Shown here: piece by piece, positions 6,359-45,130 of the stretch
Layout of the letters: each line of letters opens with the position of its first letter
Position numbering within the stretch: position 1 is the first letter of the stretch
Origin: Perkinsus olseni
Lineage: Eukaryota
Assembly (NCBI GenBank): GCA_013115125.1
Contig: JABANN010000002.1
Coordinates: 186,001 to 231,521 of the forward strand
Length of the DNA: 45,521 bases
Reading direction: 5' to 3'
Notes under the pieces: model-generated
Told to the model about the DNA's origin: nothing
Seen by the model: the letters and a program-made list of their open reading frames with translations, nothing else
Database searches by the model: none
Program-made: the position numbers and the translations under genes

Positions 6359-7863
6359 CAATTTGCAACAGCAATCGCGTTCTACTTGTTCCGAATTTTA
6401 GGTGGCCTATCGCGAGAAGGTTATCGCTTGTTTGGAGTCTCTCCCGCTCAGCAAGAAGTCGAGGAAGCTTTACATGAGTCGCCGCGAGGTAGCCCCCGAT
6501 AGACCTAGCCGACTCTCCAAGTTTCCCATCAGACATTCCGGAAGGCGGCCAATCCTCCCTTCTTGCAGCCAGCTCCGATGACAGAGTCTCCTGTAGAGAG
6601 CGCCTGAGTCGGCCTGCCGCCGCTGTGTCATAACCAGCGCGGTTCTATCATGCAAACATGATACCCTTTATACTGTTGTTCATGGACTCATGAAATCATG
6701 AGCCTCGAGGAAACTCGTTGTCTGAAGACTCAGATGTTTTTTGTTTCGAGTTTCCGTAGGCGGCCGGAGGAAACTACGATTGTACCGCTACGCACACATC
6801 CGCTAGGAGAGTTCAACATCGTTACGATGAGGGGAAATTCGTTGAACATGAGTGAGGAATCAATGTACTGGAGAGCCTGACGCGTTATCGCTTTCGAACT
6901 GACTGATCATATTCACGGCCCAAGCATCGTACCTCCACTAACAATGGGTCCTGCCGGGCAGTGAGGGGCCGTATCTCAAAATCCCAACGCGGTGCATCGA
7001 CGAGGAGTTCGCCCTTCCACAGTTCAACTCGGCGCCCATGGCATAGGATCCAGGCTGTCCAGAGTCATCTACAGTGGTTCGTGCGTTATATTCACAGTAA
7101 TGGCATCAATACGTGAGCTGGGATAGCAAGGGAGACAGTCATTGTGACTGAGTCACAAAAGGAATCATAGAGCGTCCGGCCTCGGGGAGAAGAGGGACGT
7201 GCCAGGCGACAGGTATTTCAAGGTTCGCCTGTTAGGGACCGACTTACTAAGAACACAACATCCGACTTTTACCATATGGAATCCAATCTCTCGTGGGTGT
7301 GAATTCAAAGTCAAACCTCGACAGTACGGGTTAGTCAGACTAGCATCACCGATGAATCTCTCTGTGAGGGTTCAGTTTAGCCTGTTGACTAGGCCCTGTT
7401 GATCAAGCCAGGAATGTTGCTCACAGAGCGAGGTCATCGTCAGCTGGGGGACTTTCTCTCCTCCCGGCGGAGTCCGCAGTCCAAATTCATCCATGAATTA
7501 GATGTCGATATAGTAACTACTCGAAATGACCTAAACTTACAATCTCATTGCCATCCGAGACTCAGCTCCTTATCGGAGGAGAGGATCTCGTCATCGACTC
7601 CGATAGATCAGATGACCTCCGATCGCTGCCCGGCCGTTTGATCCGATCTCCACCATAAACCGCAACCAACTTGGCCGAGGATTTGAAAAAGACTCTTCCC
7701 CCATCGACTTGGACATCCAGACACACCGGGCCTTCGAGAGCATCGAGCCCCGGCAGAACTTCGCCCAAGGGTGTAAGTTACCCCATCGAATAAATATGCC
7801 GAATCCTGCTCCTCCGACTATCACAACTAAACACACTAGGCCCCAGCAAACAGTGAATTAGCA

Positions 7864-20711: not shown

Positions 20712-20849
20712 TTCATTCAGGTCCCCACCGTCATCTCAGGAGCTCACTAGCTAGCGCGGTCGCGCGCCTTCACCAAAGGCATTTGACAAGCCATCTCATT
20801 ACAGTCATGCTAGCGACTCCTGCAAACTCAACTCGCCCACCATGGGAGC

Positions 20850-20871
20850 CTAACGACTCGTTAGTAACGAG
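20850..20871. repeat. 22-bp A-X-H'-X'-A'-X-H scar (putative hAT-type excision footprint)
   Basis: c-taacga-c-tcgtta-g-taacga-g, perfect. Confidence 0.8.
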
Positions 20872-23170
20872 TCACGAAATCATCACACCATGGGAGGGCT
20901 TGAACATGCGTTCAGCCCACTGCCTGGTCTTGGTCAGATAGAACTCAGGATCAGTGCCGTAGCTCAGGTACTCCCGGGACGTCCACTTCAGCGAGGCTAC
21001 ACTTGATTTGCCATCCACAGCGGGCTCGATATTAGTGCCCTCATGCCACTCGTTAAAGGACGTTATGGAGACCTGAGGATCAGGGACACCCGGACTCTCA
21101 CGAGGATACAATTGCGAAAGTCTGACCATTTTGGGTTGCAGTTTGGCAGCCTCGGTGAACATGTCATCGAAGTACCCTCCGCCGCGGCGATCACGGGTGT
21201 TGGCGTAGTTCCAGGGTCGTACTTCCACATCAATGTAGCCTGGTCCCACCTGAAACATCATGCGTTTGAGCGGGGCACTGTTGGTGTGACGGCGAGGCAG
21301 ACGAGGGTTCGGGTTCCGACGGATCAGCGGTATCGGGGAGGAACAATTCGTTCTCAGAAGAGCAAACAAGCCGAAGGAAAATCATCAAACGAGCGACTGG
21401 GTGGCGGCCACCTGGCGAGTCACCGGTGGTGACCCTAACATCGCGGTTATCGAGGATTGCTCGACGAGCAACCGGCAACAGTAGTCCACGTGGTTTCTGA
21501 GCACCAGTTTTCCAGACGAGAAGCGAGTCACGCAATCAAAAGGCCATCACGCACTCACACTTGGTATGAAGTAGATGCCCTCCTCTTGAGCCACTCTGTT
21601 CATGTGGGGCCAATTGGAGAGAGTACTGCCGTACACGAAGCCTGTGGCCGCGAAGTACGTATAGAAACCGTCTGGAAGGACAGTGAGGCTGATCGGTCGT
21701 CTCAGGAAACACGGCCGACATCCCAAAGGGGCCGGGAGAGACTGGGGCGCACGCTGCAGCCAAAGCGAAGCGTGACGGCACTGCGATTGACGCAATCCAC
21801 TTAACAGTTTCACCATCACTGGCGCCTCCCCATGCTCACCGAATCCCGACTTCGCGTATGCAGCGTGTGTCGCTTCAACCCACAAGAAGATTGCCGTGCA
21901 GTCCAAACCATCTTTACCGCGGACTGAGATATCTCCCCCTGGACTCAACAGCCTCGCCCACTCCTCAGGCGAGTTGTGATAGCTGTCATATATGTATCTA
22001 CCCACGTTCTTACGGGCGAGAATGGGATATCCTCAACGCTAGGTGTTCTGCTCTGACGCGGCGTGCTGTGTAGGTGACTCACACCAGAGGTAGGAGTGCT
22101 CCACCATGTGTACTAGCAACCCGGTGGAGAGCCGGGTGACTTCCGTAATGCTGATGAATGTACTCGAAGTCTTTACGCACCGACACGGGGTCACGACCTG
22201 CAGCCCGAGCGTTGTGCGTGGCTGCAGTTAACGCATACCTTCGTACGGCTCGAGATGTATGGCGATTCTCATGCCGTGATCCCAGGCTGCATCTAGCAGC
22301 AAACTCCCTATAAGATCAACGGTCTCGTTTCGGCCTTCTAGAGCGGGGTCATGAAGGCCGGGAGGATACCTTGTGAATCACAAGCTGTGATGATTCGGTC
22401 GTTCGATTGGCTAATGACGCCCGTACCAGCTCACAACAACTACACCCATGCCCGCTCTTTTCATCATTTCCATGTGAATGGCGATGACTTGGGGGTCCAG
22501 CGAGGAGTAGGGCCCAAGCTGCGGCCAATAGGACGAACCAATATCGTCATTCTCGGGAACGTGCTCGTCTTCAGAATATCTAAATTATTAAGACTTAATC
22601 GCCACATGATGGGAGGGGCCGAAAGCGCGCGGTGAGTTTTTTTCAAAGACAATCTTCATTCTTGAAGGAACCACAGTATTCTGAATGGAGCGGCTCGTGG
22701 ACTCATTCCCGCATCCGATTGCCAATCGGCGATTGGTACTTCTTCGCAATCTGCGGGTCCCAATGCGGCAGCCGTCGATGGTTCCAGTGGGCCCAGGCCC
22801 CATCCCTACCCTTGCTGCGGTACCACACGTAGTAGAACCCATGGACGTTGCAGCGCCACCCACAGGAGCTGTCAGTCTCGGCCGACTGGCCGGTAGTTGC
22901 CGATGTTTCAATCCTATGCTGCTCAGTGGTCATCGTGAGGAGTGTTGTCTCGTTGCTAGGTGACGTGGAACTGATGGCGCCGCCACCTGCGTAGACGCTG
23001 TCTAAGCTCCGTATTGAGCCGGGCGTCAGGATTCCCCTCAGATTGCGCTCGTGTTGTTCGCTGGGTGGGGTCGAGGCGTTGAACACTAGGACTAGGACCA
23101 CCATTGCATATGCGAGCGAGACGGCACCGATGAGTAAAGGGAGAATGGATAGACATTTGGCGAGCCGCAT
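20872..23170 (-). CDS. Glycoprotein endo-alpha-1,2-mannosidase, GH99 (MANEA-like), copy 1, multi-exon type II membrane protein
   Basis: N-terminal TM; VHGFYYVWY, WAHWNH, DIGSSYWPQLGPYSS, HLEPYEGR, YIYDSY, DGFYTYFA, VGPGY, ITSFNEWHEGTNIEP. Confidence 0.93.
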
Positions 23171-24234: not shown

Positions 24235-24689
24235 CTTGGCATTCAATTGCTGAGGAGTGGGAGAGGATCGTTATGAATCAGAACTCATGAGCGACGAGAC
24301 CGCGCCTAACAAAAAGACCAACGGAGCAAACATCCTCAAGGTGCTGAGTGGTAGTTCACTTAGCCTCACTGCTTAATGGCCTGATCGGCCTGAGAGTCAC
24401 AGACTGAGACTGTGAGAGAGAGTGAGTAGTCGGGTGAACCAGCGGGTGTCGCCCGCCTGTCCCAACAAACATAAGCAGCAGCAGCCGCCGCCGCAGAGAG
24501 GGTATGAATCCTGGGAAAGTTCGACCTGCTGGCAATCCACCGTACTCCTCGGCTGAAGTGTTATTGAAAGCACAACCACACGCTAAAAACATCAAGAGTG
24601 GTACATCAAAATCGAGGAATCATGCATACGTGAGTGTAGTCCTTTTCCGAAGTGGATTGCAGGCAGGAATCACAAGCCAGAACCTATTA

Positions 24690-27290: not shown

Positions 27291-28563
27291 ACAACGTCGA
27301 TTGAAGATGGCAACTAAAACTGTGGAGAGACTAATCCAGTATCATCACGACGCTTGCAGGAACGTCCTCAACGTCCCTGTGAAGAGATCAGCGGACCAAG
27401 GTGTCTTCAATCGGCTCCGGTGGAGACTAGGAGACTCAGAATGAGCGAGTGCTGAAGATACCCCGATGCGTCTCGTCTCGCGGCCGATCTTGAAATCTCG
27501 GAAGAAATGGCGGAAGGGAACCCGGCTGCCGAAAGCTCTCCTGCGTGCGTGTAAGAATATGAACAAAAATAAATACACGGATGAATGGTGAATTGGCACC
27601 GCATACAGATCCCCCACAAATCTTGAATGCTAGTTTGCTCACCAAAGGGCTCATCACTCTACAACGGCTGCGCTCAGAAGTTCTGCTCGGAGTGTCAAAG
27701 AATAAATGCGCTCGAAATTTGGGAATTCCCCAGACTGTCGTTTCCCGAAATTGTTCCTCGAAAATTGTGTGCCTCACAGTGAGGGCCTCACTTTCGCACT
27801 ATCGGATGCTTTGCGATTATCAAAAGATTCTGGGAGAAATCATCAGAGCCACAATCCCCATGACGTGATAACCAAGCTCAACTCCAAAATGAATCTTCAT
27901 TCGACCGATGATACCCTGAAGACGCCAGCATGTGCGCTTCTCACAGTCCAGAGCTCCCCTTCGATGACTTCGTCAAACAGAAACCCGCAGAAATGCCGAT
28001 ATGCTTTCTATGATGGACCCCTGCGAGGCACTTGTCATTTCCTCCTCGACCCCTACTGCCTCTTCCTCGAAGAGTCGGCCAAGTCCTGTCCAGAACAAGT
28101 TGCTACGTATTGGACTCTCCCTCACTCATCTGAGTTCACTTCTTCACACGTACTAGATGTCACGTAGCTGCATCTTGCGAACCCCCTCGTGATTGCCGTC
28201 AGCAATTTGCCGACCATTTGCTGTCTCATGGTGGTGCACAGGACATCGCGACTGAACTTGTTCTCGTCGAGCTCCCAGGTGACAGCCTCTACTGAGTCGG
28301 CAAATTTTTTATTGACATAATATTGAGCATCTGCGACTTGCCGCTGGCTTCGGTCACAGACTGTAATACCGATTGAGGAGGGATCCTAGGTTCGTTTCCT
28401 ACAACTGTCACTGTTTTTGCACAAGTTCTTCGCGGTTTCTGCGCAGCCGTTCGATTGCTCGCTCGGGAACACAAGGTTTATGGCATTCCGCAAGTTTCCC
28501 ATGACTTCCGAATAACGCGGTTGATTTTGCTCCCGCCCTGGATCAAGCTCAACACCAGCTCAG

Positions 28564-30965
28564 TCACGAAATCACCACATCATGGGAGGGCTCGAAAATG
28601 CGCTCGGCCCACTGCCTGGTCTTAGTCAGATAGAACTCAGGATCAGTGCCGTAGCTTAGGTACTCCCGGGACGGCCACTTCAATGAAGCTAGAGTTGACT
28701 TGCCATCCACAGCGGGCTCGATATTAGTGCCCTCGTGCCACTCGTTAAAGGACGTTATGGAGACCTGAGGATGAGCGACGACCCGACTCTCACGAGGATA
28801 AAATTCCGAAAGTCTGACCATTTCCGGTTGCAGTTTGGCAGCCTCGGTGAACATATCATCGAAGTACCCTCCGCCGCGGCGATCACGGGTGTTGGCGTAG
28901 TTCCAGGGTCGTACTTCCACATCAATGTAGCCTGGTCCCACCTGAAACATCACAGATTTGAGCTAGACACTGCTGATGCGATACCGAGGCATACGAGCTC
29001 CAATGGATAAGCAGCATCCGGGAGGAACAATTCGTTCGGAGCAAAGTGAATCATCTAACGAACATTGTGGTACTCCAGCAACTGGCAGCATTAGTTCACA
29101 TGGTCTCTGAGCAGCAGTTACCCAAAAGAGAACAGATTCACGGGGCCCGGCCATGCTGGTCATCGCACACTCACACTTGGTATGAAGTAAATGCCCTCAT
29201 CTCGAGCCACTCTGCTCATGTGCGGCCAGTTGGAGGGAGTACTGCCGTACACGAAGCCAGTGGCCGCAAAGTACGTACAGAAACCGTCTGGAAGGTCAGT
29301 GAAGCTAATCGGTTGTCCCAGGGAACACGGCCGACATCCCAGAGGAGGCGGGAGAGACTGGGGCGCACGCTGCAGCCAACGCGAAGCGTGACGGAACTGC
29401 GATCGACGCAATCTACCTAGTAGTTCACCACCACTGCCGCTTGCCGAGGCTCACCGAATCCCGACTTCGCGTATGCAGCGTGTGTCGCTTCAACCCACAA
29501 GAAGATTGCCGTGCAGTCCAAGCCATCTTTACCGCGTACTGAGATATCTCCCCCTGGACTCAACAGCCGCGCCCACTCCTCGGGTGAGTTGTGATAGCTG
29601 TCATATATGTATCTACCCACGTTACTACGGGCGAGAATTGAAGATCCTCAACGCTATACACTGCCTACATAACACAATCCAGCTGTACTCATACCAACTT
29701 CGCATTTTCAAGTCGAAAATTTCGACCCATTCCCTCATCTTCTCTACTTTCTATCTGCTCTATCTCGTTCACTATGAGCCCAATCTACTTCTGTCGTGTT
29801 ATACAACTACACCTTCTACGACGAGATAGTGCAGCTAGATGTTGTGCTATGGCGTGCCCCGCTATACCAGTGACTCACATCAGAGGTAGGAGTGCTCCAC
29901 CATGTGTACTAGCAACTCGGTGAAGAGCCGGGTGACTTCCGTAATGCTGATGAATGTACTCGAAGTCTTTACGCACCGACACGGGGTCACGACCTGCAGC
30001 CCGAGCGTTGTGGGTGGCTGCAGTTAACGCATACCTTCGTACGGCTCGAGATGTATGGCGATTCTCATGCCGTGATCCCAGGCAGCATCGAGCAGCAAAC
30101 TCCCTATGAGATCAACGGTCTCATTTCGACCGTCCAGGGCGGGGTCATGAAGGCCGGGAGGATACCTCGCCAATCACAAGTTGTGATGATTCGGTCGTGG
30201 ATTGGCCAATAACACCCGTACCAGCTCACAGCAACTACACCTATACCAGCTCTTTTCATCATTTCCATGTGAGTGGCGATGACTTAAGGGTCCAGCGAGG
30301 AGTAGGGCCCAAGCTGCGGCCAATGGGACGAACCGATATCGTCATTCTTGGGAACGTGCCCGTCTTGAGAATATCTAAATTATTAAGACTTAATCGCCAC
30401 ATGATGGGAGGGGCCGAGAGCGCGCGGTAATTTTTTTTCAAAGACAATCTTCATTCTTGAAGGAACCACAGTATTCTGGATGGAGCGGCTCGTGGACTTA
30501 TTCCCTCATCGGATTGCCAATCGGCGATTGGTACTTCTTCGCAATCTGCGGGTCCCAATGCGGCAGCCGTCGATGGTTCCAGTGGGCCCAGGCCCAATCC
30601 CTACCCTTGCTGCGGTACCACACGTAGTAGAACCCATGGACGTTGCAGCGCCACCCACAGGAGCTGTCAGTCTCGGCCGACTGGCCGGTAGTTGCCGATT
30701 TTTCAATCCTATGCTGCTCAGTGGTCATCGTGGGGAGTGTTGTCTCGTCGCTCGGTGACGCGGAACTGATGGCGCCACCACCTGCGTAGATGCTGTCTAG
30801 GCTTCGTATTGAGCCGGGCGTCAGGATTCCCCTGAGATTGCGCTCGTGTTGTTCGCTGGGTGGGGTCGAGGCGTTGAACACTAGGACTAGAACCACCATT
30901 GCATATGCGAGCGAGACGGCACCGATGAGTAAAGGGAGAATGGATAGACATCTGGCAAGCCGCAT
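28564..30965 (-). CDS. GH99 endo-alpha-mannosidase, copy 2
   Basis: Same exons as copy 1 with the EWHE motif intact; carries the substitutions DGFCTYF and RDWAW. Confidence 0.88.
29657..29833. mobile_element. 177-bp insertion in a GH99 copy-2 intron, MITE-like
   Basis: Absent from copy 1; flanked by GCTA/GCTA; imperfect inverted ends TACACTGCCT..AGATAGTGCA. Confidence 0.6.
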
Positions 30966-31208
30966 CGCGAGCTGCAGGGTAGCATTTCGCCAAGGGGTGT
31001 AGCGCGGCACGCAGTGAGCAGATCGAAGTAACTCTCCCAAAGATGAGTGAACTTGAAAAAACACGATTCTTCCTAACGATACGTAACGAGGCAGTATCAT
31101 GTTACACGGTGTAGTGAGAAATCTGACGGCTAGCAATACTTAGTGCGGAAGGACTTCCGAGAATCCTATCCGGTAACCCGGACAGGGACCAAATATGATG
31201 ACGATGAA

Positions 31209-32195
31209 TCAAGCGAAAATAGGATCGAGACCAACAACACAACGATCTCTCGTGATGAACCATAAACCGCCGTCGTTGCGGACAAAAAAGCGACAGAAAT
31301 CCACTCGCGGAAGGGGCACGCGAGAACGAACGATCATCTTCCGGAGGTCAACTATGGACACGGTGAGCGTGTCCGAACCATCATAGTGGCCGACTATGAA
31401 GCACAGAGCCCTCCTGTTGTCGACGTCCACGTCGGCAGGGCAGAGGTCTAACATGGTCACCTCTCCTAACACCTCTCCTCTACGCGAAATGGCGGAAAGC
31501 GCGGTGCCTCTCGCTCCGCCTGTCATTCGCTGCACGACCAAAATTCGAGCTTCTTCCTCTCCTCCTTCATACACACACAGACCCCTTGCTGGGCGGCCGC
31601 CACAGTCTACGAAGGTGCTCGTTGACCCATCGGGGCCAATACGGATAACAGAAGCGCCGCCATACGATAGGCCATAGAAACAGCCGTCCAGAGAAGAGAA
31701 TACGGGCGTGGAGAAACAGTCTATGAATGTCCGCTGAGGCATCCATGAGGGGAGCAGATGCTTCGAAGTAGGATCAACGCCGGGGTGCCACTCGCCCACT
31801 TGCCAATTCACAAATTTGCATGATCGTCCAGTGTTTTGTTCAATGGCAATGAGATTTCCTTGTTCCGAGTCAACAGCCAGGCAGAGCAGAAAGCCAACAT
31901 CAAGTGTGCAGTGCTCCACGGTAGCGCTACGAGGGCGAAGTTCGAGGACGACACATTCGCAGAGACTCGAGTATCGCAGTACGAGGAGTCCAGAGCCATC
32001 CGGTACCCGGCAACAGGGAGACGTTTGAATGTCGATGGCTAGAGTTTTGGGAGAGCCGAAACTTGTCAAGAGAGGCTTCAGCAGATCCCAGATATCGGAC
32101 ATGCAGTCGGCTGGTAGGAGCATTCCATATCGCGTCGCGAGTGCTTCGATAACAAGCAATGAACGCAAGCGCTCGCTGGGGTGCACGAGGGACAT
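31209..32195 (-). CDS. F-box-like N-terminus plus beta-rich protein, intact copy, intronless
   Basis: MLLPADCMSDIWDLLKP F-box-like helix; full-length ORF aligns end to end with 35315-36274. Confidence 0.8.
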   Translation of the reverse strand: MSLVHPSERLRSLLVIEALATRYGMLLPADCMSDIWDLLKPLLTSFGSPKTLAIDIQTSPCCRVPDGSGLLVLRYSSLCECVVLELRPRSATVEHCTLDVGFLLCLAVDSEQGNLIAIEQNTGRSCKFVNWQVGEWHPGVDPTSKHLLPSWMPQRTFIDCFSTPVFSSLDGCFYGLSYGGASVIRIGPDGSTSTFVDCGGRPARGLCVYEGGEEEARILVVQRMTGGARGTALSAISRRGEVLGEVTMLDLCPADVDVDNRRALCFIVGHYDGSDTLTVSIVDLRKMIVRSRVPLPRVDFCRFFVRNDGGLWFITRDRCVVGLDPIFA

Positions 32196-32793
32196 CTTGG
32201 CATTCAATTACTGATAAGGAGCGGGAGAGGGTCGTTGTGAGCGACAAGACTGCGTGGAACAAAAGCCCAACGGAGCAGATATCCTGAATAGGCCGGCCTT
32301 AGCGGAAAGCCGCTTTCCAAAAGCGTGATTCGCTGTAGCGAGGTCAGCTGCTGACAGTCGGCACTCGAACTCAATAACCTTTATCACTGGCAAGTAGTTC
32401 GGTCACTTTGCCTCACTCCATCAGGGTTTTATTCGCCTGAGACGCTGAGACGGTGGTTGGCTGTGAACACTGTTAACAACTGGTGACACCGTTAGCCTGT
32501 TAACTCAACAGGCCTCAGAACCAATGCTGTCCGCGGGGAGGCATTGCCGCCTGACCGCTTGGCGGTTTACCAGCGAGAGAGAGTACGTAGCGAGATTTGA
32601 TTTGTGCCTCAGTGGCTGGCGCGCGCGCTTAAGATCATGCCGTTTCTCCTGTTTGGCCCTGCACCGTCTTATGAAGCCGCCGAGATGTATTAATCTCCTA
32701 CGATCAATATAATTTGCATCAATGACTGCCACGCCCACCGTTGATGGGGGGAACGGGGACTCACGCCAGTGGCAACGCCAGTGTGGCATGGGA

Positions 32794-34571
32794 GTGAGGA
32801 CTCTTCACTGAGGAGGTCCGCGTCGAGAATACTGCGGGCCGCTGTGTGGCACACTGCAACTCTGAGCGCTAAGCCCGTATGATCACTGGACTAGGAACTC
32901 TACAGCTGAAAACCAACTCTATGATAGAGTCTCTATCGCCAGTCAGTAACTTCCGTCTTTTTCGAAGGCAGAATAACAACTCTCTTCGAGACCGGTGCGT
33001 GAAACTTTCACGCTTTCACGGTGACAGCGCTGGTTAATCCAATGATCCCGGGGTCCGATGAGCGATGATTGAGGCATCGCAGTACAACCTGCACCAAGCA
33101 GCCACTCTATGAAGAGGCGATGGATGTTATTAGAGCAAAGCAGACTATATTGTTATACTCCCCTAATATGGACCGTGGCGGAAATTCCCTTACAATGTAA
33201 GGCTTACATGAATTACCATTCATCATGAATGATTCATGTAAACTCCTCCACGCCCACGGGCCGCTCTGGTATCTCTATGAAAGTTGGGGCTGTGGCTTAT
33301 CAGTGGACGTACGAATTTCGGGTCCGGTCATTGTTCGGCTGAGCCCTATACGGCCGCAAACGCGAGGACGCGGTGGACCTCTTACCTTGAGTCGAGCGAC
33401 TAACCTCCGGGAAGAACCAGTCGACTGAATCGACCTTCGGAGCACTAGTTAGTGTTACTCCATCAGTTGGGGGTTCGGATGGGCTTGGGTGGATTTCGTC
33501 AGCCTAACCGGGAAGCTGACGAGCATCTTCAGTGTAGAGAGGCGATGAAAGATGTTGGAGGGGTACAAGAAGACCGGAAGTAGCCGAGACTAGGTGGACG
33601 AGCTCGTCATCAGCCTGTCCATGTTGGCTGAGAATTGGGAAGCATTGCCGGAGCTCTTGGAGGAACTCGAGCTGGAACGTAGGACGCGTTCCAGGACGAG
33701 CCAGGGATATAGAGAGTATAGGCAGTTGTGGGAGCTAAGGAGAAGTGGGGCATTTGAAAAGGTGCTCAGCAGACTTCGGCATCGTCGAGAATTCCATCCA
33801 GGAGATACTGTCTACCGATAGAGGCCAGTTGAGAGTCTCAGACAGTCTCAACTTGAGACTGTGTTATGCTCTTCGTGGGACGGTCCGTGGAAGATCTTGC
33901 GCTTTCTGGGCAAGACGATGGTGATCGTAGTACTTCTGAGGGATCCTCGCATTAAATGAGGACTTGAAGTCTGTAGCACTGAAGCTGCCTCATTCTGTGG
34001 TGACTCGCGGGCTCTCACAGGGATTGGCGGTTGCTAGAATTGTGCGAGTATACAAATCACTGGTTCCAGCTCTAATTCAGTTGGAATTGTATGAAACTGA
34101 ATTGGGACTTTATTTCGACTGTGAGCCTTATACTATAAGGCTTATAGTATGAGAGCTTTATGTCACAAACTTCTACCATAGAGTGTTTCATTATTCTCGA
34201 GAAACTACTAGAAAGAAGCAGAAACTTCTCAAAAATGTTGACAGCCCCGAAGGTTTCGGGCCGAAACGGATGTGTTACCGCCTGACGTACTCCAACAAAC
34301 GACGCGTTACACGATGAATTTCGATAAATTAGCAACTTGATACAAGCCTTCAGCAGTGACGAGCTCGAGCGCCGGCTCAATGGTCCAAATTGCACCGTCC
34401 AATGCTGGGGCCTTGATCCAGGAGGCTCCTTGCAGGAGTCTGAATCAGACTGTCTGATCGCCGCAATGAGAAGGAGAACGATTGAAACACTTATATGGCG
34501 AATACTCATGAGCCTAGATACTGGGATGAGGGTGACCATTGGTCACTGACCAAACGACGTTTGGCAAACGT
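32794..34571. repeat. Cluster of 22-bp A-X-H'-X'-A'-X-H scars
   Basis: Perfect at 32916-32937, 33188-33209, 33217-33238, 34126-34147, 34532-34553 and 34550-34571; one mismatch at 32794-32815 and 34246-34267; compound at 33828-33859. Confidence 0.9.
33430..33960 (+). mobile_element. Decayed Ty3/gypsy-type LTR retrotransposon integrase C-terminus
   Basis: ...REFHPGDTVYR*RP...LCSSWDGPWKILRFLG matches the GPY/F module (F..GD.V...L...W.GP..I); in-frame stops present. Confidence 0.7.
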
Positions 34572-35314
34572 CCGAGCGACCAACATGTACCGTCAAGAAC
34601 CATCAATGATGATTATGTTAGTACTAAAAAAAATTGCTGCCGAAAGTACTATTCATGCCGCTCCCAATGTGGAACGCACGAAGGGAGATGAGATCACAGG
34701 GATGAAATCTTCTGTGCGATCTGCGGGGACCGTACGTTGATGAGGCCTAATGAAGCTGTAACAGCTTCAGTAACAGTTCCCCACAGCGCCGGAACGCTCT
34801 TCCTAAAATGAGAGTCCCGAGTTTCTGAAACAGTGCGTCTCATCGCGGAACCTTCCAAATAGCTTTCAATAACTGAAGTGCAGCAGCAACGAACGGCATC
34901 TGGCATCAATAGTCTGCGATGTGGTGGCTATCGCTAAGATTAAACTATTCCTCCTGCCTCAGTAGGATCCACGGCGCTTCCCGCACCTGACACTCAACTC
35001 AATAGACGTGGAACACTTGAAAACATGTCACTACTCAGGACCCATGTCATATGTGCGTCACCGCCCAAGACTCATGGGCTATGACTCATGACTACTGCAG
35101 TTTAGCCATCAAGAGACAGCAGCTGCCGATAGGGGCATGTTCTAGTAGCCACCCACTGTGCATCGCGAAAGCTACAGGAAATACAAGACCTAATTAGTCA
35201 ATGAAGATTCGTCTCAACAGCGGCGAATCTCACCATGTTCGTCACGATAAGAAGAAAGTATCAGAAATCTTCTTGGAGTTTTTCGCGTCCAAATTTGGGA
35301 GGCGTCAAAGATGT

Positions 35315-36274
35315 TCATATAAAGACGGGGTCCAACGCTTCCACATGACGATCCTCAGTGAGAATCCAGAGGCCCCCATCATTCCGAACGAACATCCGCA
35401 GCAAGGCGGCCTCGGGTAGCGACACACAGGTACGGACGGACTTCTGCTTGATGTCTATGACGAATACGGCGAGGGTATCGAGACCATCACAGTAGCCTAC
35501 CGCGAAGCACAAAGCCCTTCTGTTATCGACGTCCAAGTCACCGTTTGATAGGTCCAACTTAGTCACCTCACCAAGTGGCTCTCCCAGAATTGAGAATACC
35601 GAGAGGGAGGAACTTACTGCCTTTTCCGTAGCTCGCTGCAGAATCAGAATTTGAGTCGCTTGCTCTTCGCCCTCATACAAACACAAGGTCTGCGCTGGAC
35701 GATCTGCAAAGTCCAGGAAAGTGCTGATTGATCCATCAGGACCAATACGGATCACTGAGTCACCTCGCCATGATAGACCATAAAAACAGGCGTCCCGAGA
35801 GAAGACAGGGCGACTGATGTAACTAAGTAGGTTTTGCCAAGAAACCCGAGATGGTTGTAGCTCCGCAGTAGAAACATTTTCCCCGCACTCCCAATCCGTG
35901 AACCGGCATGACCGTCCCGTGTTCTGCTCGACGCAAACGAGACCTCCGGCTGGAAAGTCAACCGCCAGACATAGCAGGAACCCGACGTTCAGGTTGTGAT
36001 GCCGTAAACTCTCCCCGGATTGTCGCACCTCGAGCAGCCCGCATTGGTAACGTTTCCACCGTCTCAGTAGTAGAAGACCCGAGCCATCACGACGCTTGTG
36101 GTAGGGAGAGGCCTGAACGCCGATGGCCACTTTCTCCGGTTCAGAGAAGGCTGTCAGACAAGGTCGGGCAAATTCCCAGATGTCCGAGACGCAGTCTACA
36201 GGTATCAGCGGTAGATAGTGCTTGGCCAAGGTTTCAACAACTGTGAGGCAACGAGAATACTCGCTGGGGTACAT
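35315..36274 (-). CDS. F-box-like N-terminus plus beta-rich protein, paralogue, intronless
   Basis: LPLIPVDCVSDIWEFARP; shares VGFLLCLAVD, EQNTGRSC, CFYGLS, DVDNRRALCF and FVRNDGGLW with 31209-32195. Confidence 0.82.
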   Translation of the reverse strand: MYPSEYSRCLTVVETLAKHYLPLIPVDCVSDIWEFARPCLTAFSEPEKVAIGVQASPYHKRRDGSGLLLLRRWKRYQCGLLEVRQSGESLRHHNLNVGFLLCLAVDFPAGGLVCVEQNTGRSCRFTDWECGENVSTAELQPSRVSWQNLLSYISRPVFSRDACFYGLSWRGDSVIRIGPDGSISTFLDFADRPAQTLCLYEGEEQATQILILQRATEKAVSSSLSVFSILGEPLGEVTKLDLSNGDLDVDNRRALCFAVGYCDGLDTLAVFVIDIKQKSVRTCVSLPEAALLRMFVRNDGGLWILTEDRHVEALDPVFI

Positions 36275-36386
36275 AGAGAAAAGCAACGTCCTGCAATGGA
36301 AGAGGACTACTCACTTTATTCGTCACTGGCTAGCTCAGTAACTCGAGGAGGAAGTGTTGACTCTCAAGTGCAGTTACTATAGTACC

Positions 36387-36408
36387 GCTTGACTGTCAAG
36401 CCTTGACA
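36387..36408. repeat. 22-bp A-X-H'-X'-A'-X-H scar
   Basis: g-cttgac-t-gtcaag-c-cttgac-a, perfect. Confidence 0.8.
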
Positions 36409-36552
36409 CAATTTGGCCACCTACCCCCGCTGGGTTTCGCGCTATAACCATCACTTTGCATTGACAACACAGCATGAGAGACTTCTGAGTAATGATGACT
36501 GACAAACTAATAGCTTGCTACTAATGGATGAGGACTCAACAACAACGACACA

Positions 36553-39500
36553 TTAAGAAGACTCAATGGAAGAGCTGCGATCCCCCACGGGATGATACTG
36601 TGGGAATCCCTCAGCCTTGGAAGCATCGTACAGCTTATTGTACTGGGGGTGGAAGGGCGACAGCGCTACAGCGACAAAATCAACCGGGACTGTATCCGTC
36701 GGAACAATGGCCACCGGTATCTGATGGAGAATCTTCTGCTCATCGTGAAGCACCGCACGACCTACCGCTGAGAAAAGCCTGACTGTCACTTTGCGCCCAC
36801 GACGCTCATCATTGGGGTGCTCCCACTCGTAAACTGCCTGGCCGGTCCTATAGGAAACTGACGCAGGCTTGGTTAATAAACTCAGCTCCTCCGTCATGTG
36901 AGGACTTTGCTGCCCCTTGTAGAAAGGCAAAGTTACATTGTAGAATCTGAAGGGCTGATGGAGGCTGCTGTGCATGCGCTGGACTTACACTTGACATTCC
37001 TTGACGAATTTGGGGATATAAACAGACAGGCTATTCTCCTTGATAGCAACAACAGTGCCGGTAGTGTAGTGAAGACTGTCTCTCGTGCGGAGATAAATAC
37101 AGAAGAAAGTGATATCAAACTTCGTCTGAGCTTCACGACTCGACTTCTTCATCTCTGACAACAGCCATCGGGGGAAAACGGAATCACCAAGCATTCTTAC
37201 TGTTGCACTCCTCGCATTGTGCTTCATGCTCCTGCGCCGTCATCTTCAGATTCCTCTTCTCGTTCGGTTGCAACTACACACGAACGATGATGTAAGATTC
37301 GTAAAGTCGGACAGCGGAGGCACAAGCCGGCACAAACGGCTTCGAATGATCTGCCTACTAGGATCTGCAGTTGACGATGTACCATAACATCAGCATAACG
37401 ACGAATGGGAGATGTGAAGTGAGTATAAAGTGGGAAGGCGAGGGCATAGTGAGACACGCTTCGACCATCTGACCCTTGGACGCCGTATCTGCACGACAGC
37501 CATGTTCCGAGCATTCGGCGATCGATTTGAGTAGTTGCTGCTGCTTGCGCGGCAATGTGTAATGCTAACTTACTCCGCAGGGCGCATAGTCTTCATAACC
37601 ATGTTCTCTATTGAGAGGCCTGCCTCAGGCGTGAGCTCCTTCTTGACGTTAGTCAGTGCCTTGAAAACCAGACCGCTATCCCCACCATCACCAGCGCACC
37701 ACACGGTCTTGGGTATACCTGAATTGAGCAGCATAAACAGTAACACCCGAAAAATGGGATTTTGGTGTTACGTAAGTCTTCGAGCAGCAACTTGGTGATC
37801 TTCTCGAAACCTTCCTTGATCGGTCTGTCGTGGTGTCGCAGCACGGCAATCTCTCTCATCTTCTCGTCCTTGTTGTTAGCAATGGCAGTAGCAACACAAC
37901 GGTTGGCAGCCAGCATCAACTGCAGAATAGATAGGGCTGAGCCGGGAATCGAACCCGGGACCTCGCGCACCCGAAGCGCGAATCATACCACTAGACCACA
38001 CAGCCACAATACTAAACAACTATCGCCCCGGGTCCCTCTCCCTCTTCACCTCTTCGATGAGCCAGTGACTCGGCGTGTGCGACTCCAAGCCGTACCCGAT
38101 AGGCAGGTTGGTCTCCGGATCCATCTTAAACAACAGCTTGTGCTTATCGATCTTCACCGAGCCATCCTCAAAGAAGCGATTCACTCGGACCTGACGCCGG
38201 ACAAGCACCAATCAACAACAACCACCAAACAGTTGACCAACTACTTTCTTGCAGACCGCGTAGAGCAGATGAAGATCGCTCTCCACATCCTCCCAAGTAT
38301 GGCCGTCGGTTACGGGCGGCCTGAGGGAGACACACTTCGGGCCTGGCCACCACCCGTCGCAATCGCCTACTGTTGGGCCAGAGGTTTCCCATCAAGGACG
38401 TCCTGAACTTCATCGTAGTTGAATCGACAGCAAGATTTAATAGCCGATTTACAGAACTTCGGACCAGAGGCGCAAGTGAACTGAATGCACATGCGTGAGG
38501 ATCATACCAAAACTCCCCCAAATTATGTACATTATTGCCGTCATCGATGCCAATTATCCTTCCCGTATCAACATTGATTCGGAAAGTGGCCGTGAAGGTG
38601 AGTTTATGCTCAGCCGGGTTCAGACTGCACAGCTTCGCACAGAGCCCTTCCGGCAGCATCGGGAACATCTAAAAAGAAGACACGGAAACTTCGCTCCGCT
38701 GCTATCGTGTGAAGGCCAATAGTGACCGATACTGAAGCCAACGGTGAGATCATGGCCAGCGCACAGCGCTGGCTTCCACAGACCCCACACGGTTGATTTC
38801 GGGGCGCGCGCGAATTCCAGGGATAGCGTCAGATAATCTTCGACGTACCCTGTGGCAAAGATAGACAGACGTACACCTCTTCTGAGCCTCCTGATCCACC
38901 GCTGACCCTGAGCCGAACAAATCAATCCGAGCTATTTTGGATCTTCCTCGCTTCAACCTCAGATATTACCTTGCTTCACATAGTGAGCGACGTCAGCGAT
39001 ATGAACCCCGATCTCAACCGTATTCTCGTCTATCACATCAATGCTGACAGCATCATCCTGCAAGAGATATTCCCTCCAACATCAAGCCATGGTATCATAC
39101 CAGATCTCGAGCTGTCGCGGGGTCCACAGTAAAGATACGCTTCTTCGTGAGATCCCGTCTAGAACCCCCAAGCCGCATCTCTCTTCTGTACTCAGCCTCA
39201 GCATTGGCCACCATCCGGTCCACCTGATCATCGCCTGATTCTCTCACGCTTCGCCACGAATCGACCGGATCCCAACAGGCTCCAGGGTAAGGTGCAAAGG
39301 TCCGTCAGGAGTGAAGTCAGAAATTGCCAAAAATGGTCATCAGAAACGAACGCGTAGAAGACGTTCCAGACCTCATCTTAATGTGAGTACTTATTCCTAC
39401 CGGAAGCTAGGGAAAAAGAGCCGTCCTCACTACAGATGACATCTCGGAGTCCAGGCGAGTGTACAGAGAGAGCCCGGCGGGGTGCGATGAACTTCTATCA

Positions 39501-42440
39501 CGGCAATGACGCTACCCGTTTCGAGCTCTACACGAAGGACAAATTTCGCGAAAAGCTGTGGCTATATGAACAAAGTATGGTTGAGCCTAACGAAGGCGTC
39601 GGACTGTGATCGTAAAAACCAAAGACTATTGCAACTTTCTACCGATCGTATTCTTGTTCTAAGCTAGACGAAGCCAATATAACTTCGCGCGGTTCCTCCT
39701 TGGCATCAGTGCGATGGAAAACTCGTACTACCCGTACTACCTCGTCGTAGACTTGTCGGCTGAAGTCTGCAGCATGGTGCTCGAGATTAGCCTCCTCAAG
39801 ACAAGCCGCCGTCTCTGCAGCCAAGTCCCCAGCACTTCCGAAAGGCTTTCCAGCCAACCTGATATACGCGCATACTCATACCACACCTCTCACAACTCCT
39901 ACCTCCCCAATGGCAACACCGAGTTGGTTCCCCATTTGAGCATCTGCACCGGTATCATCACTCGACCGTTCAGTGGGCCCGGCAGGCGCAGGACACGAGA
40001 GACAACATCATTAATCTACGTTTAACACACCCTTCCTCGTCAACGATCTGGTAGACGAGTGGTATTAGACCCACCTGAATGAGCATCCAAGGCAATCTCT
40101 TATTCATTGGCTTAGCTCGAATGAACTTGTCTCCCGGCTGCACCATGGAGGTGAGGGGATCGGCATCTGAAGCGCAGAACTCAGAAGCGATACATTCATG
40201 GCGGCATCCAGATGCAAATGCCTAGACAAGATACGCTTCATAGTGAAACCGTTACGATACCCAGAATATCTTAGCTCGATCCTAGGTAAGAACGAGAGAG
40301 GAAGATTCACTCACACCATCCGTGTCGCGTACGAAGGCAACCGTTCGCCAAAACAAGTACACGTCTATGCGGCAACACGGCATCTTCCACTGTGTGACGA
40401 GCATGTGCCGGAAAAGACTTCCGAGCTCCCCATACGGCTAGCTCAACCCCCTGTTATCATTACCAATGGCACCATCCAGAGGATCTCCGCCCCCTCCTGT
40501 CTTGTTAGCTTCTAACGTGCATACAAACCTATCATGACATCCCTCACTAGCATGACAACAGCAGCAGCGGGCCCTCCTACGGATGCTTATTCCAGCACTT
40601 CTTCGACACGTACACCACCACTGCCGTCCGGAAGCACTCGGTCGTTCTTTCTTTCGCGCCGTCATCAGACTCTTCCGAGCTCTCATGCATAACGGCGTCC
40701 TCGTCACGGCCCTCACACTTCGCCAAACGTCTGAGTCGCGCGCCACGAAATTACAGATCGGTTGAAGTGCTCTCCATTAGATAATAAACCCCGTAGACCA
40801 TGCGGTGCCAACACGAAAAAGGATATTAACAACTGCCGGGATCGAACCCGGGACCTCGAAACCTACTTGATATCGGCTCGAGTGGGCACGAGATCGTCCT
40901 CGTCACTGGATGAGGATGATGTACTGGAGCTTCGCCCTCGAGCGTTGCCCTTCTTATTCTTATTAAAATCCTTGAATTCGGGTGCGATACGGATCTGCAT
41001 ACCGCTCGTCTTCGATACCTGTTAAACGAGAGCTCAGGCAGTAGAAATCCGAAGTTTCGGTACATTTTCTCACTATGAGCATAACTTCTTGGGGGCAATT
41101 TTATGCTACCATACCGACCACAACTAACTGGTGCAAATGCCAACAATTGAAGCGAACAGAGGGGCGAGCATAGCGAATCGCCGACGGAAAGCAAACTGCA
41201 TTTGGTGATTTCGATGATATTCTCGCAGTGACTGATCGTCGAATGGTTTTGGGATAGCATTAACAATGATAAAGGGACCCAATTCGCCTTACCCATTGCT
41301 CCAGAGGGTTCAAACGCACCACTACTTCGTCTCCATGTATGGCTCTGTTGCGGTCGAACTTCCCTTTTATGAGAATGTCTACATTACTCTTACTGAGAAG
41401 GACATCACTCAGGAGTTATTCACAATTCGCCTTCGGCCTCCCAAAGCTTCCAATGAGCCCAGACGCTGTAGAAAACCCCCGCCGGGAATGCCGTGCCCTT
41501 TCTACTCATCCACGTCTCTGGTTCGATCCGGTCTGACTCGTACAAATGCGTCGTTCGGGGTCTGTTGAACTACCTGATACGAGACGCGTTACTCGAACCC
41601 GATACTTCCCGGTAGTCAAACATGATCCTTGACCACCAGCCCACTTCCCCATACTACTTGAAGAAGGCCCGAAATCAAGGACCCGTCTGCTAGACCTGCT
41701 TCAGCTTCCTCCCTGGTGATATACTCCGGGTACGGTGGACGTGACATATCCTCCAACAATCGGGAGATAATACAATTACTAAATCCGATACCAAAACATC
41801 CGCAACTCCTCCATCAGGTGGGAAGATATTGGACACTCCTGAGTCGCCTTCACGATTCCGAACGAAAAATAGAAAAATACGGAATACAGATGCACAGCAC
41901 CGTACCGTCAACAAGTGAACCACTGAGAAATTATGTGTAATGGTAGTATCGTCCTTCGAGTAAAGACGAGCCCCCTCACTACTGCTCCCCCTAGAACGTT
42001 TTATCCTCACTGAACACAACAATACCGACTACGTAAACTGTTCTTAGATGCTTCCCTTGATACAGTTGAATTACCATGTGTCTCATCAGGCGCCCTGGAT
42101 CGACCTGTCCTCTGTCGTCGCTTTCGGTCCAACGGAGGACCTGGACTCCCCGCAGACTAGTAAGCATCGGGAAGGTTGGTTGGTGAACGATTACTGTGCC
42201 GGCCACTGGCCGGCGGCCAGCCGTCAAAAAAACGACGGCGTCACCGTCGTCAAACGCGTAAATCTGCCCGGAAAGTCTCCATCATCATCATCATCATCAT
42301 CCTCCGGGGTATTTTGAACCAGGGCCCTCGCGAAGATAGACCTAACTCTTTCCCCACTGCACCATTATTCGTGTTAAACTTCGAAAAACGTATGAGCTCC
42401 ACAAGCCTGAACGCAGCATACGATTGATACTCGCCTCCAT
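36553..42440 (-). CDS. DIS3L2: DIS3-like exonuclease 2 (RNase II/RNB family), many exons; 5' end uncertain
   Basis: [60 protein letters not shown] (DIS3L2-type), [54 protein letters not shown]. Confidence 0.92.
37934..38005 (-). tRNA. tRNA-Pro(CGG), nested sense in DIS3L2 intron 37920-38049
   Basis: GGCTGTG TG GTCTAGTGGTATGATT CGCGC TT CGG GT GCGCG AGGTC CCGGG TTCGATT CCCGG CTCAGCC C: 72 nt, full cloverleaf, one acceptor-stem mismatch. Confidence 0.96.
40828..40866 (-). pseudogene. tRNA 3'-half relic starting at the 5' splice site of DIS3L2 intron 40731-40866
   Basis: GTAGG TTTCG AGGTC CCGGG TTCGAT CCCGG CAGTTGT: variable loop plus T-arm (one base short), with a T5 run shortly downstream. 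Confidence 0.6.
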
Positions 42441-43002
42441 ACCAGCCAAGCGCGGGGCGTCGAAACACCGCTTAAAAATAGAGCGGAAGAGCTCCTCTAT
42501 CGAATCAGACCGGCGAGAGCATCTTCCTCTATCATCCTTCGTGTAACCTTTAACATCGCGACAGCTCCGCGGCTGATGAAAAAATCAAACGTCGCTCGCC
42601 GAATCTTGCTACCTTGGAGTTTCTCAACGGAAATGCGTCATTACGTCATGCGTCAAAAGTGAGTCATTACGGGCGCTAGACATCGTTATTCGTCACCGCC
42701 TCCTCTCCTGTGCCATATGCTCTTTTGCACTCGCTGATTACTGTCCATGCAAGGTCGGCGATTGCCATTTTCGGCACATATACTCCCAACGGCCCTTTGT
42801 CGTGAACAGGGGAGCAATGCAACGATTCTGAAGTTTGGTATCGTCGCTTTGATTGAATTCTGAATTTTGCGAAAAAATGGAGTCCAGGATCTGTTCATAA
42901 CGTGAGTAGGTCGTTGAACTAACTCGTGGGCTGGTGGAAGCGATAAATCTGCGAAGGAATCAGTACGCTCAGTTTTCCCCATTTCGAAGTTAACTGCCCA
43001 AA

Positions 43003-44538: not shown

Positions 44539-45130
44539 CTGTTTATGCGTTCGGTAATGATGCCCAGACTTATTCAATCATCAACAACAAAAGTAACAAT
44601 TATTATTTGATCTCATTTTGTAATGGGGGTTTGGTTCTAGTTGGGCTAAACGTGACCATGATGATGACGATCTCCTTACTTCAATCACTCGAAGGCTCGG
44701 TGGAGCGAAGGACATGTAGAGTTTGCGAACCGGAGTGGACTGCGAAAGACTGAGGCAGAACCGAGCAGCAACGGTATAACTGTATAACGCCGCACAGAGC
44801 TCATCGTAAGTTGCTAGCATACCGGCTTTTGAGTCTGACTGAGTCGGCAACGGCGTTGGCCTCAGAACTAAGACACACAGTGGTGGGACGGATGATGAGG
44901 GCATGGTATGTACTCTCTGCGGTGCTTATTACAACGGTCAGAAGTTTATGATTGCCAGTTCGATCACAGCAGATGCGAGAGTACCCGCGGGAGTACCGCT
45001 GGGTGCTTCTAATGTAGGCGTGCAGCTTCTCTGCGCCTCAAGCCGCTGAGAATTAGAAGAGCTCTAACGTATTGAATGTCTCCTCCGTCGTGCTGGTAAC
45101 GCAAGCCTCAGCGTGAATATCTTGCGCTGA

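What the first reader, a model, noticed from the sequence alone, without database searches (positions are those of the whole stretch)
32794..36408. Non-coding DNA is littered with a stereotyped 22-bp triple-palindrome scar (A-X-H'-X'-A'-X-H), a uniform hairpin-type transposon excision footprint
Seen: perfect scars at 32916 (a-ctctat-g-atagag-t-ctctat-c), 33188 (c-cttaca-a-tgtaag-g-cttaca-t), 33217 (c-attcat-c-atgaat-g-attcat-g), 34126 (c-cttata-c-tataag-g-cttata-g), 34532 (g-tgacca-t-tggtca-c-tgacca-a), 34550 (c-caaacg-a-cgtttg-g-caaacg-t), 36387 (g-cttgac-t-gtcaag-c-cttgac-a) and 20850. One-mismatch copies are at 7136, 32794 and 34246. The sequences are unrelated but the geometry is identical: spacer 1 is always the complement of the last base and spacer 2 the complement of the first. 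Fourteen of 22 positions are determined, so about 2e-4 such hits are expected per 45 kb at equal base frequencies. I saw none in intact coding exons. Established: hAT transposases (Ac, Tam3, Hermes) make 8-bp TSDs and leave hairpins on the flanking DNA, giving palindromic footprints centred on one complementary base; these are usually short and heterogeneous. Inference: both hairpins of target ABCDEFGH are opened and joined through their shared inverted copy, giving ABCDEFG-H'G'F'E'D'C'B'A'-BCDEFGH (+14 bp) each time. That implies a fixed repair route and a self-describing record of past transposition. No source element is visible in this window.
Basis: partly seen in the sequence, partly recalled or inferred. 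Interest (0 to 1): 0.9.

Follow-up and report, generated by a model that had tools for sequence, protein, structure and literature searches.

The report
Stereotyped 22-bp transposon excision scars
This stretch of a Perkinsus (mollusc parasite) genome carries about forty copies of one exact 22-base direct-inverted-direct pattern built from unrelated 8-base words, best read as the uniform scar left when a hAT-type jumping gene leaves a site, so the DNA keeps a readable log of past transposition.

Summary
The pattern w[1-7]+revcomp(w)+w[2-8] occurs exactly 11 times for 8-bp words. It occurs 0 times for words of 6, 7 and 9-13 bp, 0 times in 20 shuffles and 0 times in 360 kb of unrelated DNA. Allowing decay, about 40 copies lie in the 45.5 kb.

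Only one geometry exists: both outer copies lack exactly one base. There are no half-scars and no excess of short classical footprints.

Two of 12 indels between two paralogous segments in the window are exactly 14 bp. Each pairs a decayed scar with a bare 8-mer.

The geometry is what two hAT-type flank hairpins on an 8-bp target duplication give when joined by annealing their inverted copies. The target words show a T2/A7 bias like Hermes.

No element or transposase lies in the window, no genome was available, and the cross-strain read table was truncated. The transposon itself is therefore inferred.

I found no prior description. Verdict: a new variant of a known kind; interest 0.75.

The parts
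20850..20871 (.). exact scar; abuts the stop codon of the GH99 gene and the edge of the segmental duplication
22715..22736 (.). exact scar at the end of the GH99-homologous part of exon 1 (start of the intron, inferred); shared with paralog copy 30510
30510..30531 (.). paralogous copy of scar 22715, one mismatch; the scar therefore predates the duplication
32916..32937 (.). exact scar
33188..33209 (.). exact scar
33217..33238 (.). exact scar, 7 nt after the previous one
34126..34147 (.). exact scar
34532..34553 (.). exact scar; its last 4 nt are the first 4 nt of scar 34550 (two events on overlapping 8-bp targets)
34550..34571 (.). exact scar overlapping 34532; appears in the second round of in-silico un-scarring
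36387..36408 (.). exact scar about 100 bp beyond the 3' end of the minus-strand RNB-domain gene; length conserved in a strain about 3.4% diverged (X7 record 19, 0 gaps)
7136..7157 (.). scar, 1 mismatch
21450..21471 (.). scar, 1 mismatch; the paralog has the bare 8-mer and an exact 14-bp gap
29074..29081 (.). bare 8-mer (empty site) paralogous to scar 21450, one base different from the scar's word
24270..24291 (.). decayed scar (3 mismatches by majority rule, 5 against the paralog's word); the paralog has an exact 14-bp gap
32234..32241 (.). bare 8-mer paralogous to decayed scar 24270
22370..22391 (.). scar, 1 mismatch; paralogous copy at 30166 (3 mismatches)
27771..27792 (.). scar, 1 mismatch (the only triple structure that breaks the flank rule)
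28192..28213 (.). scar, 1 mismatch
29705..29726 (.). scar, 1 mismatch, inside a 181-bp segment present only in paralog copy b
32304..32325 (.). scar, 1 mismatch
32794..32815 (.). scar, 1 mismatch
34246..34267 (.). scar, 1 mismatch
34382..34403 (.). scar, 1 mismatch
32300..34600 (.). hot region upstream of a minus-strand gene: 16 of the 34 scars with 0-2 mismatches lie in 5% of the window

Best explanation
Each 22-bp unit is the empty-site scar of a cut-and-paste transposon that makes 8-bp target-site duplications and leaves by forming hairpins on the flanking DNA. This is the hAT type of chemistry.

Write the target as ABCDEFGH, with lower case for complements.

1. At the left end the flank 3'-OH, one base short of the element, attacks the other strand. 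This gives a hairpin that reads ABCDEFG-hgfedcba.
2. At the right end the mirror reaction gives hgfedcb-ABCDEFGH on the other strand.
3. The hairpins are opened well away from the tip, or the 5' strand is resected. Each end then carries a 3' tail that holds an inverted copy of the duplication.
4. The two tails can pair only through these 8 complementary bases.
5. Flap trimming, fill-in and ligation then always give ABCDEFG-hgfedcba-BCDEFGH. That is the bare 8-mer plus 14 bp.

The alternative pairing, through the 6-base direct overlap, would restore the bare 8-mer and leave no trace. This would explain why only one kind of scar is seen.

Shown: the geometry, the fixed 8-bp size, the one-base offset on both sides, the +14 bp relation to bare 8-mers, independent events on overlapping targets, and continuing accumulation.

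Inferred: the transposon itself, the hairpins, and the repair route.
For: 1. Size and shape. Exact hits occur only for 8-bp words: 11, against 0 for 6, 7 and 9-13 bp. They occur only with offsets (1,1): 11, against 0 for the 15 other offset pairs. No other triple-repeat geometry reaches 2 hits.

2. Palindrome centres. Both palindromes are centred on the complement of the outermost base of the 8-mer, in 11 of 12 triple structures. [quoted passage not shown]

3. Insertion relative to a bare word. The two paralogous segments are 92.3% identical (3118 of 3377 aligned positions) and differ by 12 indels. Two of these are exactly 14 bp. In both, the longer copy is a decayed scar and the shorter copy holds the single 8-mer.

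4. The words are unrelated to each other, so nothing constant is inserted.

5. Overlapping scars. Scars 34532 and 34550 share 4 nt. They resolve into two successive events on a 12-nt original.

6. Target bias. Symmetrised position 2 is T in 27 of 64 half-sites (P=7e-4), A in 5 of 64 (P=1e-3) and a pyrimidine in 48 of 64. Hermes prefers nTnnnnAn (PMC10368747 introduction).

7. The no-offset form predicted for a MULE is absent. Muta1's flank hairpin is 43+43 nt (PMC5499845, passages read).

8. Mismatch classes 0/1/2 hold 11/11/12 copies. Equal classes are what a steady, still running process gives (inference).

9. Scars are absent from the sequences with coding evidence: INO1, the RING ORFs, the GH99 exons apart from one exon edge, and the conserved ORF 35315-36286. 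A 14-bp insertion shifts the reading frame.

10. In yeast, Ac/Ds footprints have palindrome arms of up to 20 nt, and 88-89% show microhomology (PMC5873905 discussion). Long hairpin read-through joined by microhomology therefore has a precedent.
Against: - No transposase domain was found in the 28 ORFs of 150 aa or more that were scanned, of 31 listed.
- No TIR element flanked by an 8-bp duplication lies in the window.
- No whole genome was held, so a hAT in this organism is untested.
- Known hAT footprints are short and heterogeneous. Here the short forms are not enriched: p=1,q=1 gives 1 hit against 1.0 in shuffles. There are no half-scars either: 1 odd palindrome with 7-nt arms outside scars against 2.1 expected.
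- About 40 scars and no resident element is an unusual ratio.
- The T2/A7 bias is partial; C is also common at position 2 (21 of 64).
- Presence/absence between strains could not be read because the indel table was cut (102 rows not shown).
- One scar (36387) is shared by a diverged strain and so gives no polymorphism evidence.
Confidence: 0.7

Rival explanations
1. The scars are excision footprints of a different, possibly undescribed or domesticated, transposase family. This family would also make 8-bp duplications and flank hairpins with a one-base offset, but would not be a hAT.
For: Everything about the geometry needs only this chemistry, not hAT ancestry. No hAT was seen in the window. 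The uniform outcome is unlike published hAT footprints (PMC5873905). Merlin-related ORFs (8-9 bp duplications) are reported in Perkinsus marinus, without TIRs or TSDs (PMC8101967, passages read).
Against: The one-base offset and the T2/A7 bias are the features reported for hAT elements. The one MULE studied forms a hairpin without offset. No flank-hairpin chemistry is known to me for Merlin, P, Zisupton or Novosib (recalled, not tested).
Confidence: 0.13
2. The scars are transposon-independent repair products: templated inverted insertions made by fold-back or snap-back synthesis at ordinary double-strand breaks or stalled forks (polymerase theta or delta type).
For: Short templated inverted duplications of about 5-34 bp at breaks are reported in yeast (PMC11724301, abstract seen in the listing). 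A direct-inverted-direct layout is what template switching gives.
Against: Such events vary in length and position. Here 11 of 11 exact copies use 8-bp words with the same one-base offset on both sides, and no other length or offset occurs. Written out strand by strand (inference), joining base 7 directly to the complement of base 8 needs either transesterification or priming without any homology, and two copies of the word are needed before the join. The target-word bias is also unexplained.
Confidence: 0.07
3. An unknown enzyme (integrase- or nuclease-like) makes the 14-bp insertion directly at staggered cuts, or the palindromes are selected functional motifs.
For: No element is seen. The scars cluster strongly in one upstream region: 16 of 34 lie in 2.3 kb.
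Against: The words are unrelated and decay like neutral DNA, with classes 0/1/2 at 11/11/12. This argues against selection on sequence. Breakage and joining alone cannot build the scar from a single copy of the 8-mer (inference). No such enzyme is known to me.
Confidence: 0.07
4. The pattern is a sequencing or assembly artefact.
For: None was found. Amplification chimeras can make palindromes (title only, PMC6218980, listing).
Against: The same letters are held by runs of two studies and by an RNA contig. Scar 36387 is kept at full length in a strain about 3.4% diverged. Decayed and paralogously shared copies exist.
Confidence: 0.02

Closest known systems
Ac/Ds (hAT) excision footprints in plants, Saccharomyces cerevisiae and Candida albicans
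   Same: They have an 8-bp duplication. Their palindromic (P-nucleotide) insertions are centred on the complement of the base next to the element. They arise by hairpin resolution with frequent use of microhomology, and arms reach 20 nt in yeast (PMC5873905, passages read).
   Different: Those footprints are heterogeneous (28 kinds among 128 revertants in C. albicans), mostly short and often carry deletions. Here a single product is seen, in which both hairpins are read through the whole 8-bp duplication and joined through it. The short forms are not enriched.
Hermes hAT transposition (8-bp target, nTnnnnAn)
   Same: The target size is 8 bp and there is a T2/A7 preference (PMC10368747 introduction). 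The nick one base into the flank is recalled from the Hermes literature and was not read here.
   Different: No Hermes-like element or transposase was seen. The bias here is weaker, with pyrimidine at position 2 in 48 of 64 half-sites.
Muta1, a Mutator-like element (8-9 bp duplication, flank hairpin)
   Same: It forms hairpins on flanking DNA, and its duplication can be 8 bp (PMC5499845).
   Different: Its hairpin holds both flank strands in full (43+43 nt), so there is no offset. The matching scar would be 24 bp, which has 0 hits. More than 90% of Muta1 excisions in yeast are precise.
V(D)J coding joints with P nucleotides (RAG, Artemis)
   Same: Flank hairpins are opened off-centre, which gives palindromic additions (recalled; also alluded to in PMC5499845).
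   Different: RAG hairpins have no one-base offset, P runs are a few bases long, and the joints are diverse. Here there is an 8-base read-through and one outcome.
Short templated inverted duplications at double-strand breaks (fold-back synthesis)
   Same: An inverted copy of flanking sequence is inserted at a break (PMC11724301, abstract only).
   Different: These are variable in length and position and are not tied to an 8-bp duplicated word.

Membership tests
hAT-superfamily excision footprint | Derived from an 8-bp target-site duplication | tested here: met
   Only 8-bp words give hits: 11, against 0 for 6, 7 and 9-13 bp. Two 14-bp indels pair a scar with a bare 8-mer in paralogs.
hAT-superfamily excision footprint | [quoted passage not shown] | tested here: met
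   Offset pair (1,1) gives 11 hits; the 15 other pairs give 0. The flank rule holds in 11 of 12 structures. The feature is as stated in PMC5873905.
hAT-superfamily excision footprint | Target preference nTnnnnAn | tested here: inconclusive
   T in 27 of 64 half-sites and A in 5 of 64 at symmetrised position 2 (P=7e-4 and 1e-3), but C in 21 of 64. Only 32 sites were counted. The preference is as stated for Hermes.
hAT-superfamily excision footprint | A hAT transposase or non-autonomous hAT element (short TIRs, 8-bp TSD) in the same genome, with occupied alleles at scar sites | not testable with these tools
   No genome is held. There is no transposase domain in 28 ORFs and no TSD+TIR element in the window. 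No Perkinsus contig is in the metagenome collection.
hAT-superfamily excision footprint | Heterogeneous, mostly short footprints with deletions | tested here: not met
   Short P-nucleotide forms are at shuffle level, there are no half-scars and only one product is seen. This is a description of known cases and not a defining chemistry, so it lowers 'typical hAT repair' but not 'hAT cleavage'.
Mutator-like (MULE) excision footprint | Flank hairpin without offset, so the full read-through scar would be word + inverted word + word (24-27 bp) | tested here: not met
   0 hits for offsets (0,0) with words of 8, 9 or 10 bp. The Muta1 hairpin is 43+43 nt.
Transib / RAG-type footprint | 5-bp duplication, hairpin without offset | tested here: not met
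   Words of 5 bp give 2 hits, which is near chance. No no-offset geometry reaches 2 hits.
P-element-type footprint | 8-bp duplication with remnants of the element termini (constant sequence) left behind | tested here: not met
   The middle part is always the inverted target word and the words are unrelated. The feature is recalled, not read.
Fold-back / templated-insertion repair of ordinary breaks | Variable length and position of the inverted copy | tested here: not met
   There is a single length and offset.

The most novel reading that the evidence does not exclude
Perkinsus resolves hAT-type hairpin breaks by one deterministic route. There is no opening near the tip and no classical end joining; the only join is microhomology annealing through the inverted target duplication. 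Every imprecise excision therefore writes the same self-describing 22-bp record.

The process is still running, at roughly one scar per 200 point substitutions. This would leave tens of thousands of datable scars genome-wide. It would be a major source of 14-bp indel polymorphism and of new perfect palindromes in promoters, introns and UTRs.

The cause would be a low-copy, locally hopping element that almost never stays put.
Probability: 0.4. Interest if true: 0.85.

Novelty: new variant of a known kind. Interest (0 to 1): 0.75.

Why it matters
If the reading holds, four things follow.

1. A genome would carry a complete, position-exact and roughly datable archive of past transposon visits. 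This is normally invisible once an element has left. Target choice, local hopping and rate could all be read from sequence alone.

2. The uniform product points to an unusual way of repairing hairpin-capped breaks in a perkinsid. That makes the repair machinery of this lineage testable by a simple gene inventory and by the scars themselves.

3. A 14-bp, frame-shifting, palindrome-creating indel class arising at about 0.5% of the substitution rate matters for annotation, for population genetics and for strain typing of a commercially important mollusc parasite.

4. The simple pattern scan can be applied to any genome to ask where else this repair outcome occurs.

Tried and rejected
- Whole-genome scan: not possible, because no genome is held.
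- Strain comparison (the only read-laying run): the indel table shows 12 rows and 102 more are not shown, so 14-bp presence/absence at scars could not be read.
  - X6 record 10 (33909-34875) lacks a net 50 letters.
  - X7 record 17 (33744-34694) lacks a net 38 letters, with 72 gap letters.
  - Both figures are compatible with missing scars but remain unresolved.
- RNA: no RNA holder is listed for 32700-36500. X9 contigs give no cover over 32400-36341 except a depth of 1.28 in one bin. I take no conclusion about expression from this.
- Metagenome scan with INO1: the best match is 70% identical, so there is no Perkinsus contig. The 80 loci served only as a negative control (0 hits in 360,195 bases).
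- Search for a source element:
  - No 8-bp TSD plus TIR pair lies outside the 7-bp repeat block.
  - The foldback array 19856-20733 has no TSD or TIR at its edges.
  - The array does not collapse under exact un-scarring.
  - The high-depth spots are a tRNA-Pro gene, a tRNA-like fragment and a GAPDH-like end, not MITEs.
- Very local clustering: 4 neighbour gaps of 30 bp or less against 0.75 expected (P=0.006). This is largely explained by the regional hot spot, so I make no claim that scars attract new insertions.
- ORF-overlap test: uninformative, because many ORFs of 150 aa or more in this DNA are not genes.
- Literature: searches found no description of this scar or of Perkinsus end-joining genes. 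Yu et al. 2004 (PMC321453) is not held. Supplements were not opened. Footprint tables in the supplements of the papers cited could contain the same product as a rare class.
- Earlier notes of this scan: nothing relevant.
Full report
**What the window is.** The INO1 protein at 43003-44538 is 98% identical to a protein named Perkinsus olseni; the next hits are about 70% identical. ORF 35315-36286 has relatives only in Perkinsus proteins. One run (X9) gives spliced contigs with GT..AG introns on the minus strand. The DNA is therefore nuclear DNA of Perkinsus olseni or a close relative. No whole genome was held.

**The observation.** I scanned for w[1..L-1]+revcomp(w)+w[2..L].
- L=6, 7 and 9-13 give none. 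L=4 and L=5 give 18 and 2, which is near chance.
- The chance expectation is 1.7e-4. Twenty Markov shuffles gave no exact and no one-mismatch hit.
- 360,195 bases of 80 unrelated, mostly eukaryotic loci gave none.

The geometry is unique.
- Among all X-spacer-X'-spacer-X layouts with arms of 5-8 nt and spacers of 0-3 nt, only the 6-1-6-1-6 layout and its sub-forms occur.
- 11 of its 12 non-tandem instances obey the rule that each spacer complements the far flank base (P=6e-13).
- Treating the two missing bases as free offsets, only (1,1) occurs for 8-bp words: 11 hits against 0 for the 15 other pairs.

Decayed copies are common. A majority-rule count over the three arms gives 11/11/12/10 copies with 0/1/2/3 mismatches, against 0/0/0.25/3.9 in shuffles. 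That is about 40 real copies, or nearly 2% of the window.

The excess of odd palindromes in the window lies almost wholly inside these units: 28 with 7-nt arms, of which 1 is outside scars, against 2.1 expected. Classical short footprints are at shuffle level.

**Not an artefact.**
- X1 contigs match 32400-37962 and 37979-45104 without a difference.
- Runs of a second study hold all sampled words.
- An RNA contig carries scar 42199.
- An X7 contig about 3.4% diverged spans scar 36387 with 0 gaps.

The first two sources may be the source strain.

**Scars are 14-bp insertions into single 8-mers.** The window holds a segmental duplication, 20870-24345 against 28562-32290, that is 92.3% identical.
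- Three scars are shared by both copies and so are older than the duplication: 22370/30166, 22579/30374 and 22715/30510.
- Of the 12 indels between the copies, two are exactly 14 bp.
  - At 21450-21471 a one-mismatch scar faces the bare 8-mer at 29074-29081.
  - At 24270-24291 a decayed scar faces the bare 8-mer at 32234-32241.
- Scars 34532 and 34550 overlap by 4 nt. Un-scarring them in silico yields two successive events on one 12-nt original. Each event therefore acts on an 8-bp window, even one partly made by an earlier event.

**Mechanism.** Write the word as ABCDEFGH, with lower case for complements.
- The top strand of a scar contains ABCDEFG-hgfedcba. The bottom strand contains hgfedcb-ABCDEFGH.
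- These are the read-throughs of two flank hairpins. Each forms when the flank 3'-OH, one base short of an element lying between two copies of the word, attacks the opposite strand at the element end.
- A Mutator-like element forms its hairpin without offset (43+43 nt; PMC5499845). It would leave a 24-bp form, which is absent.
- If the hairpins are opened, or the 5' strands resected, at least 8 nt from the tip, each end has a 3' tail. The two tails share only one terminal 8-nt complementarity, the inverted duplication.
- Annealing there, then flap removal and fill-in, gives exactly the 22-bp scar wherever the nicks fell. Annealing through the 6-nt direct overlap restores the bare word and leaves no trace.
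- The uniformity therefore follows from microhomology-dependent joining. It suggests that opening near the tip and classical end joining are weak or absent here. That step is inference.
- Long palindrome arms (up to 20 nt) and 88-89% use of microhomology in yeast Ac/Ds footprints are the nearest precedent (PMC5873905 discussion).

**Further agreement with hAT.** In 32 independent words, symmetrised position 2 is T in 27 of 64 half-sites, A in 5 of 64 and a pyrimidine in 48 of 64 (P=7e-4, 1e-3 and 4e-5). This resembles the nTnnnnAn preference of Hermes (PMC10368747 introduction), although C is also frequent.

**Distribution and tempo.**
- Scars are absent from INO1, the four RING ORFs, the Perkinsus-specific ORF 35315-36286 and the GH99 exons.
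- Scar 22715 begins where the GH99 match of exon 1 ends, presumably the start of the intron.
- Scar 20850 abuts the GH99 stop codon.
- Sixteen of the 34 scars with up to two mismatches lie in 32.3-34.6 kb, upstream of a minus-strand gene.
- Equal numbers in mismatch classes 0, 1 and 2 are what a constant-rate process gives. The rate works out at roughly one scar per 200 point substitutions.
- That rate predicts about 1.4 new scars since the duplication in the two paralogs. Two clean cases are seen, plus two inside larger indels. These figures are rough.

**What is missing.**
- No transposase domain in 28 ORFs.
- No TIR element with an 8-bp duplication.
- No occupied allele.
- The foldback array of 7-bp units at 19856-20733 has no TSD or TIR.
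- The strain comparison was truncated.

The transposon is therefore inferred from its scars.

**Rivals.** These are a non-hAT transposase with the same chemistry, transposon-free fold-back repair, and an unknown enzyme. The last two fail on the fixed size and offset, and on the need for two copies of the word before joining.

**Novelty.** Eight full-text searches and the scan's own notes gave no description of a uniform word-inverted word-word scar or of such scars in Perkinsus. Supplements and several older papers could not be read. I rate it a new variant of a known kind, with confidence 0.7 in the hAT-type reading and interest 0.75.

Noticed in passing
window 19856-20733: An imperfect foldback of about 0.9 kb built from 7-bp units in direct and inverted arrays. 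It has no 8-bp duplication or TIR at its edges. Its 7-bp period equals the arm period of a scar, but exact un-scarring does not collapse it.
   Followed up: partly
window 20870-24345 and 28562-32290: A segmental duplication, 92.3% identical, carrying a glycoside hydrolase family 99 gene and a second ORF. Homology between the copies stops 2 nt past the GH99 stop codon, exactly at scar 20850.
   Followed up: partly
window 37934-38005 (-): A tRNA-Pro(CGG) gene lies inside the 130-nt intron (37920-38049) of the minus-strand RNB-domain gene. Read depth there is about 27 times the baseline, as expected for a multicopy tRNA.
   Followed up: partly
window 846-5025 (-): Four tandem ORFs of about 200-237 aa, each with a C-terminal RING finger.
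   Followed up: no
window 11992-12094: A 29-bp tandem repeat, three copies, 98% identical.
   Followed up: no
window 29653-29833, 31340-31453, 31500-31551: Segments of 181, 114 and 52 bp present only in paralog copy b. They are not flanked by 8-bp duplications. The 181-bp segment contains a one-mismatch scar.
   Followed up: partly
window 35315-36286 (-): A conserved Perkinsus-specific gene (57% identical to a P. chesapeaki protein, 52% to a P. olseni protein) with no Pfam family. A language-model look-up hints at an NHL/beta-propeller fold, which is a lead only.
   Followed up: partly
window 36494-38969 and 41015-41653 (-): RNA contigs show many very short GT..AG introns (42-274 nt) in two minus-strand genes.
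   Followed up: no
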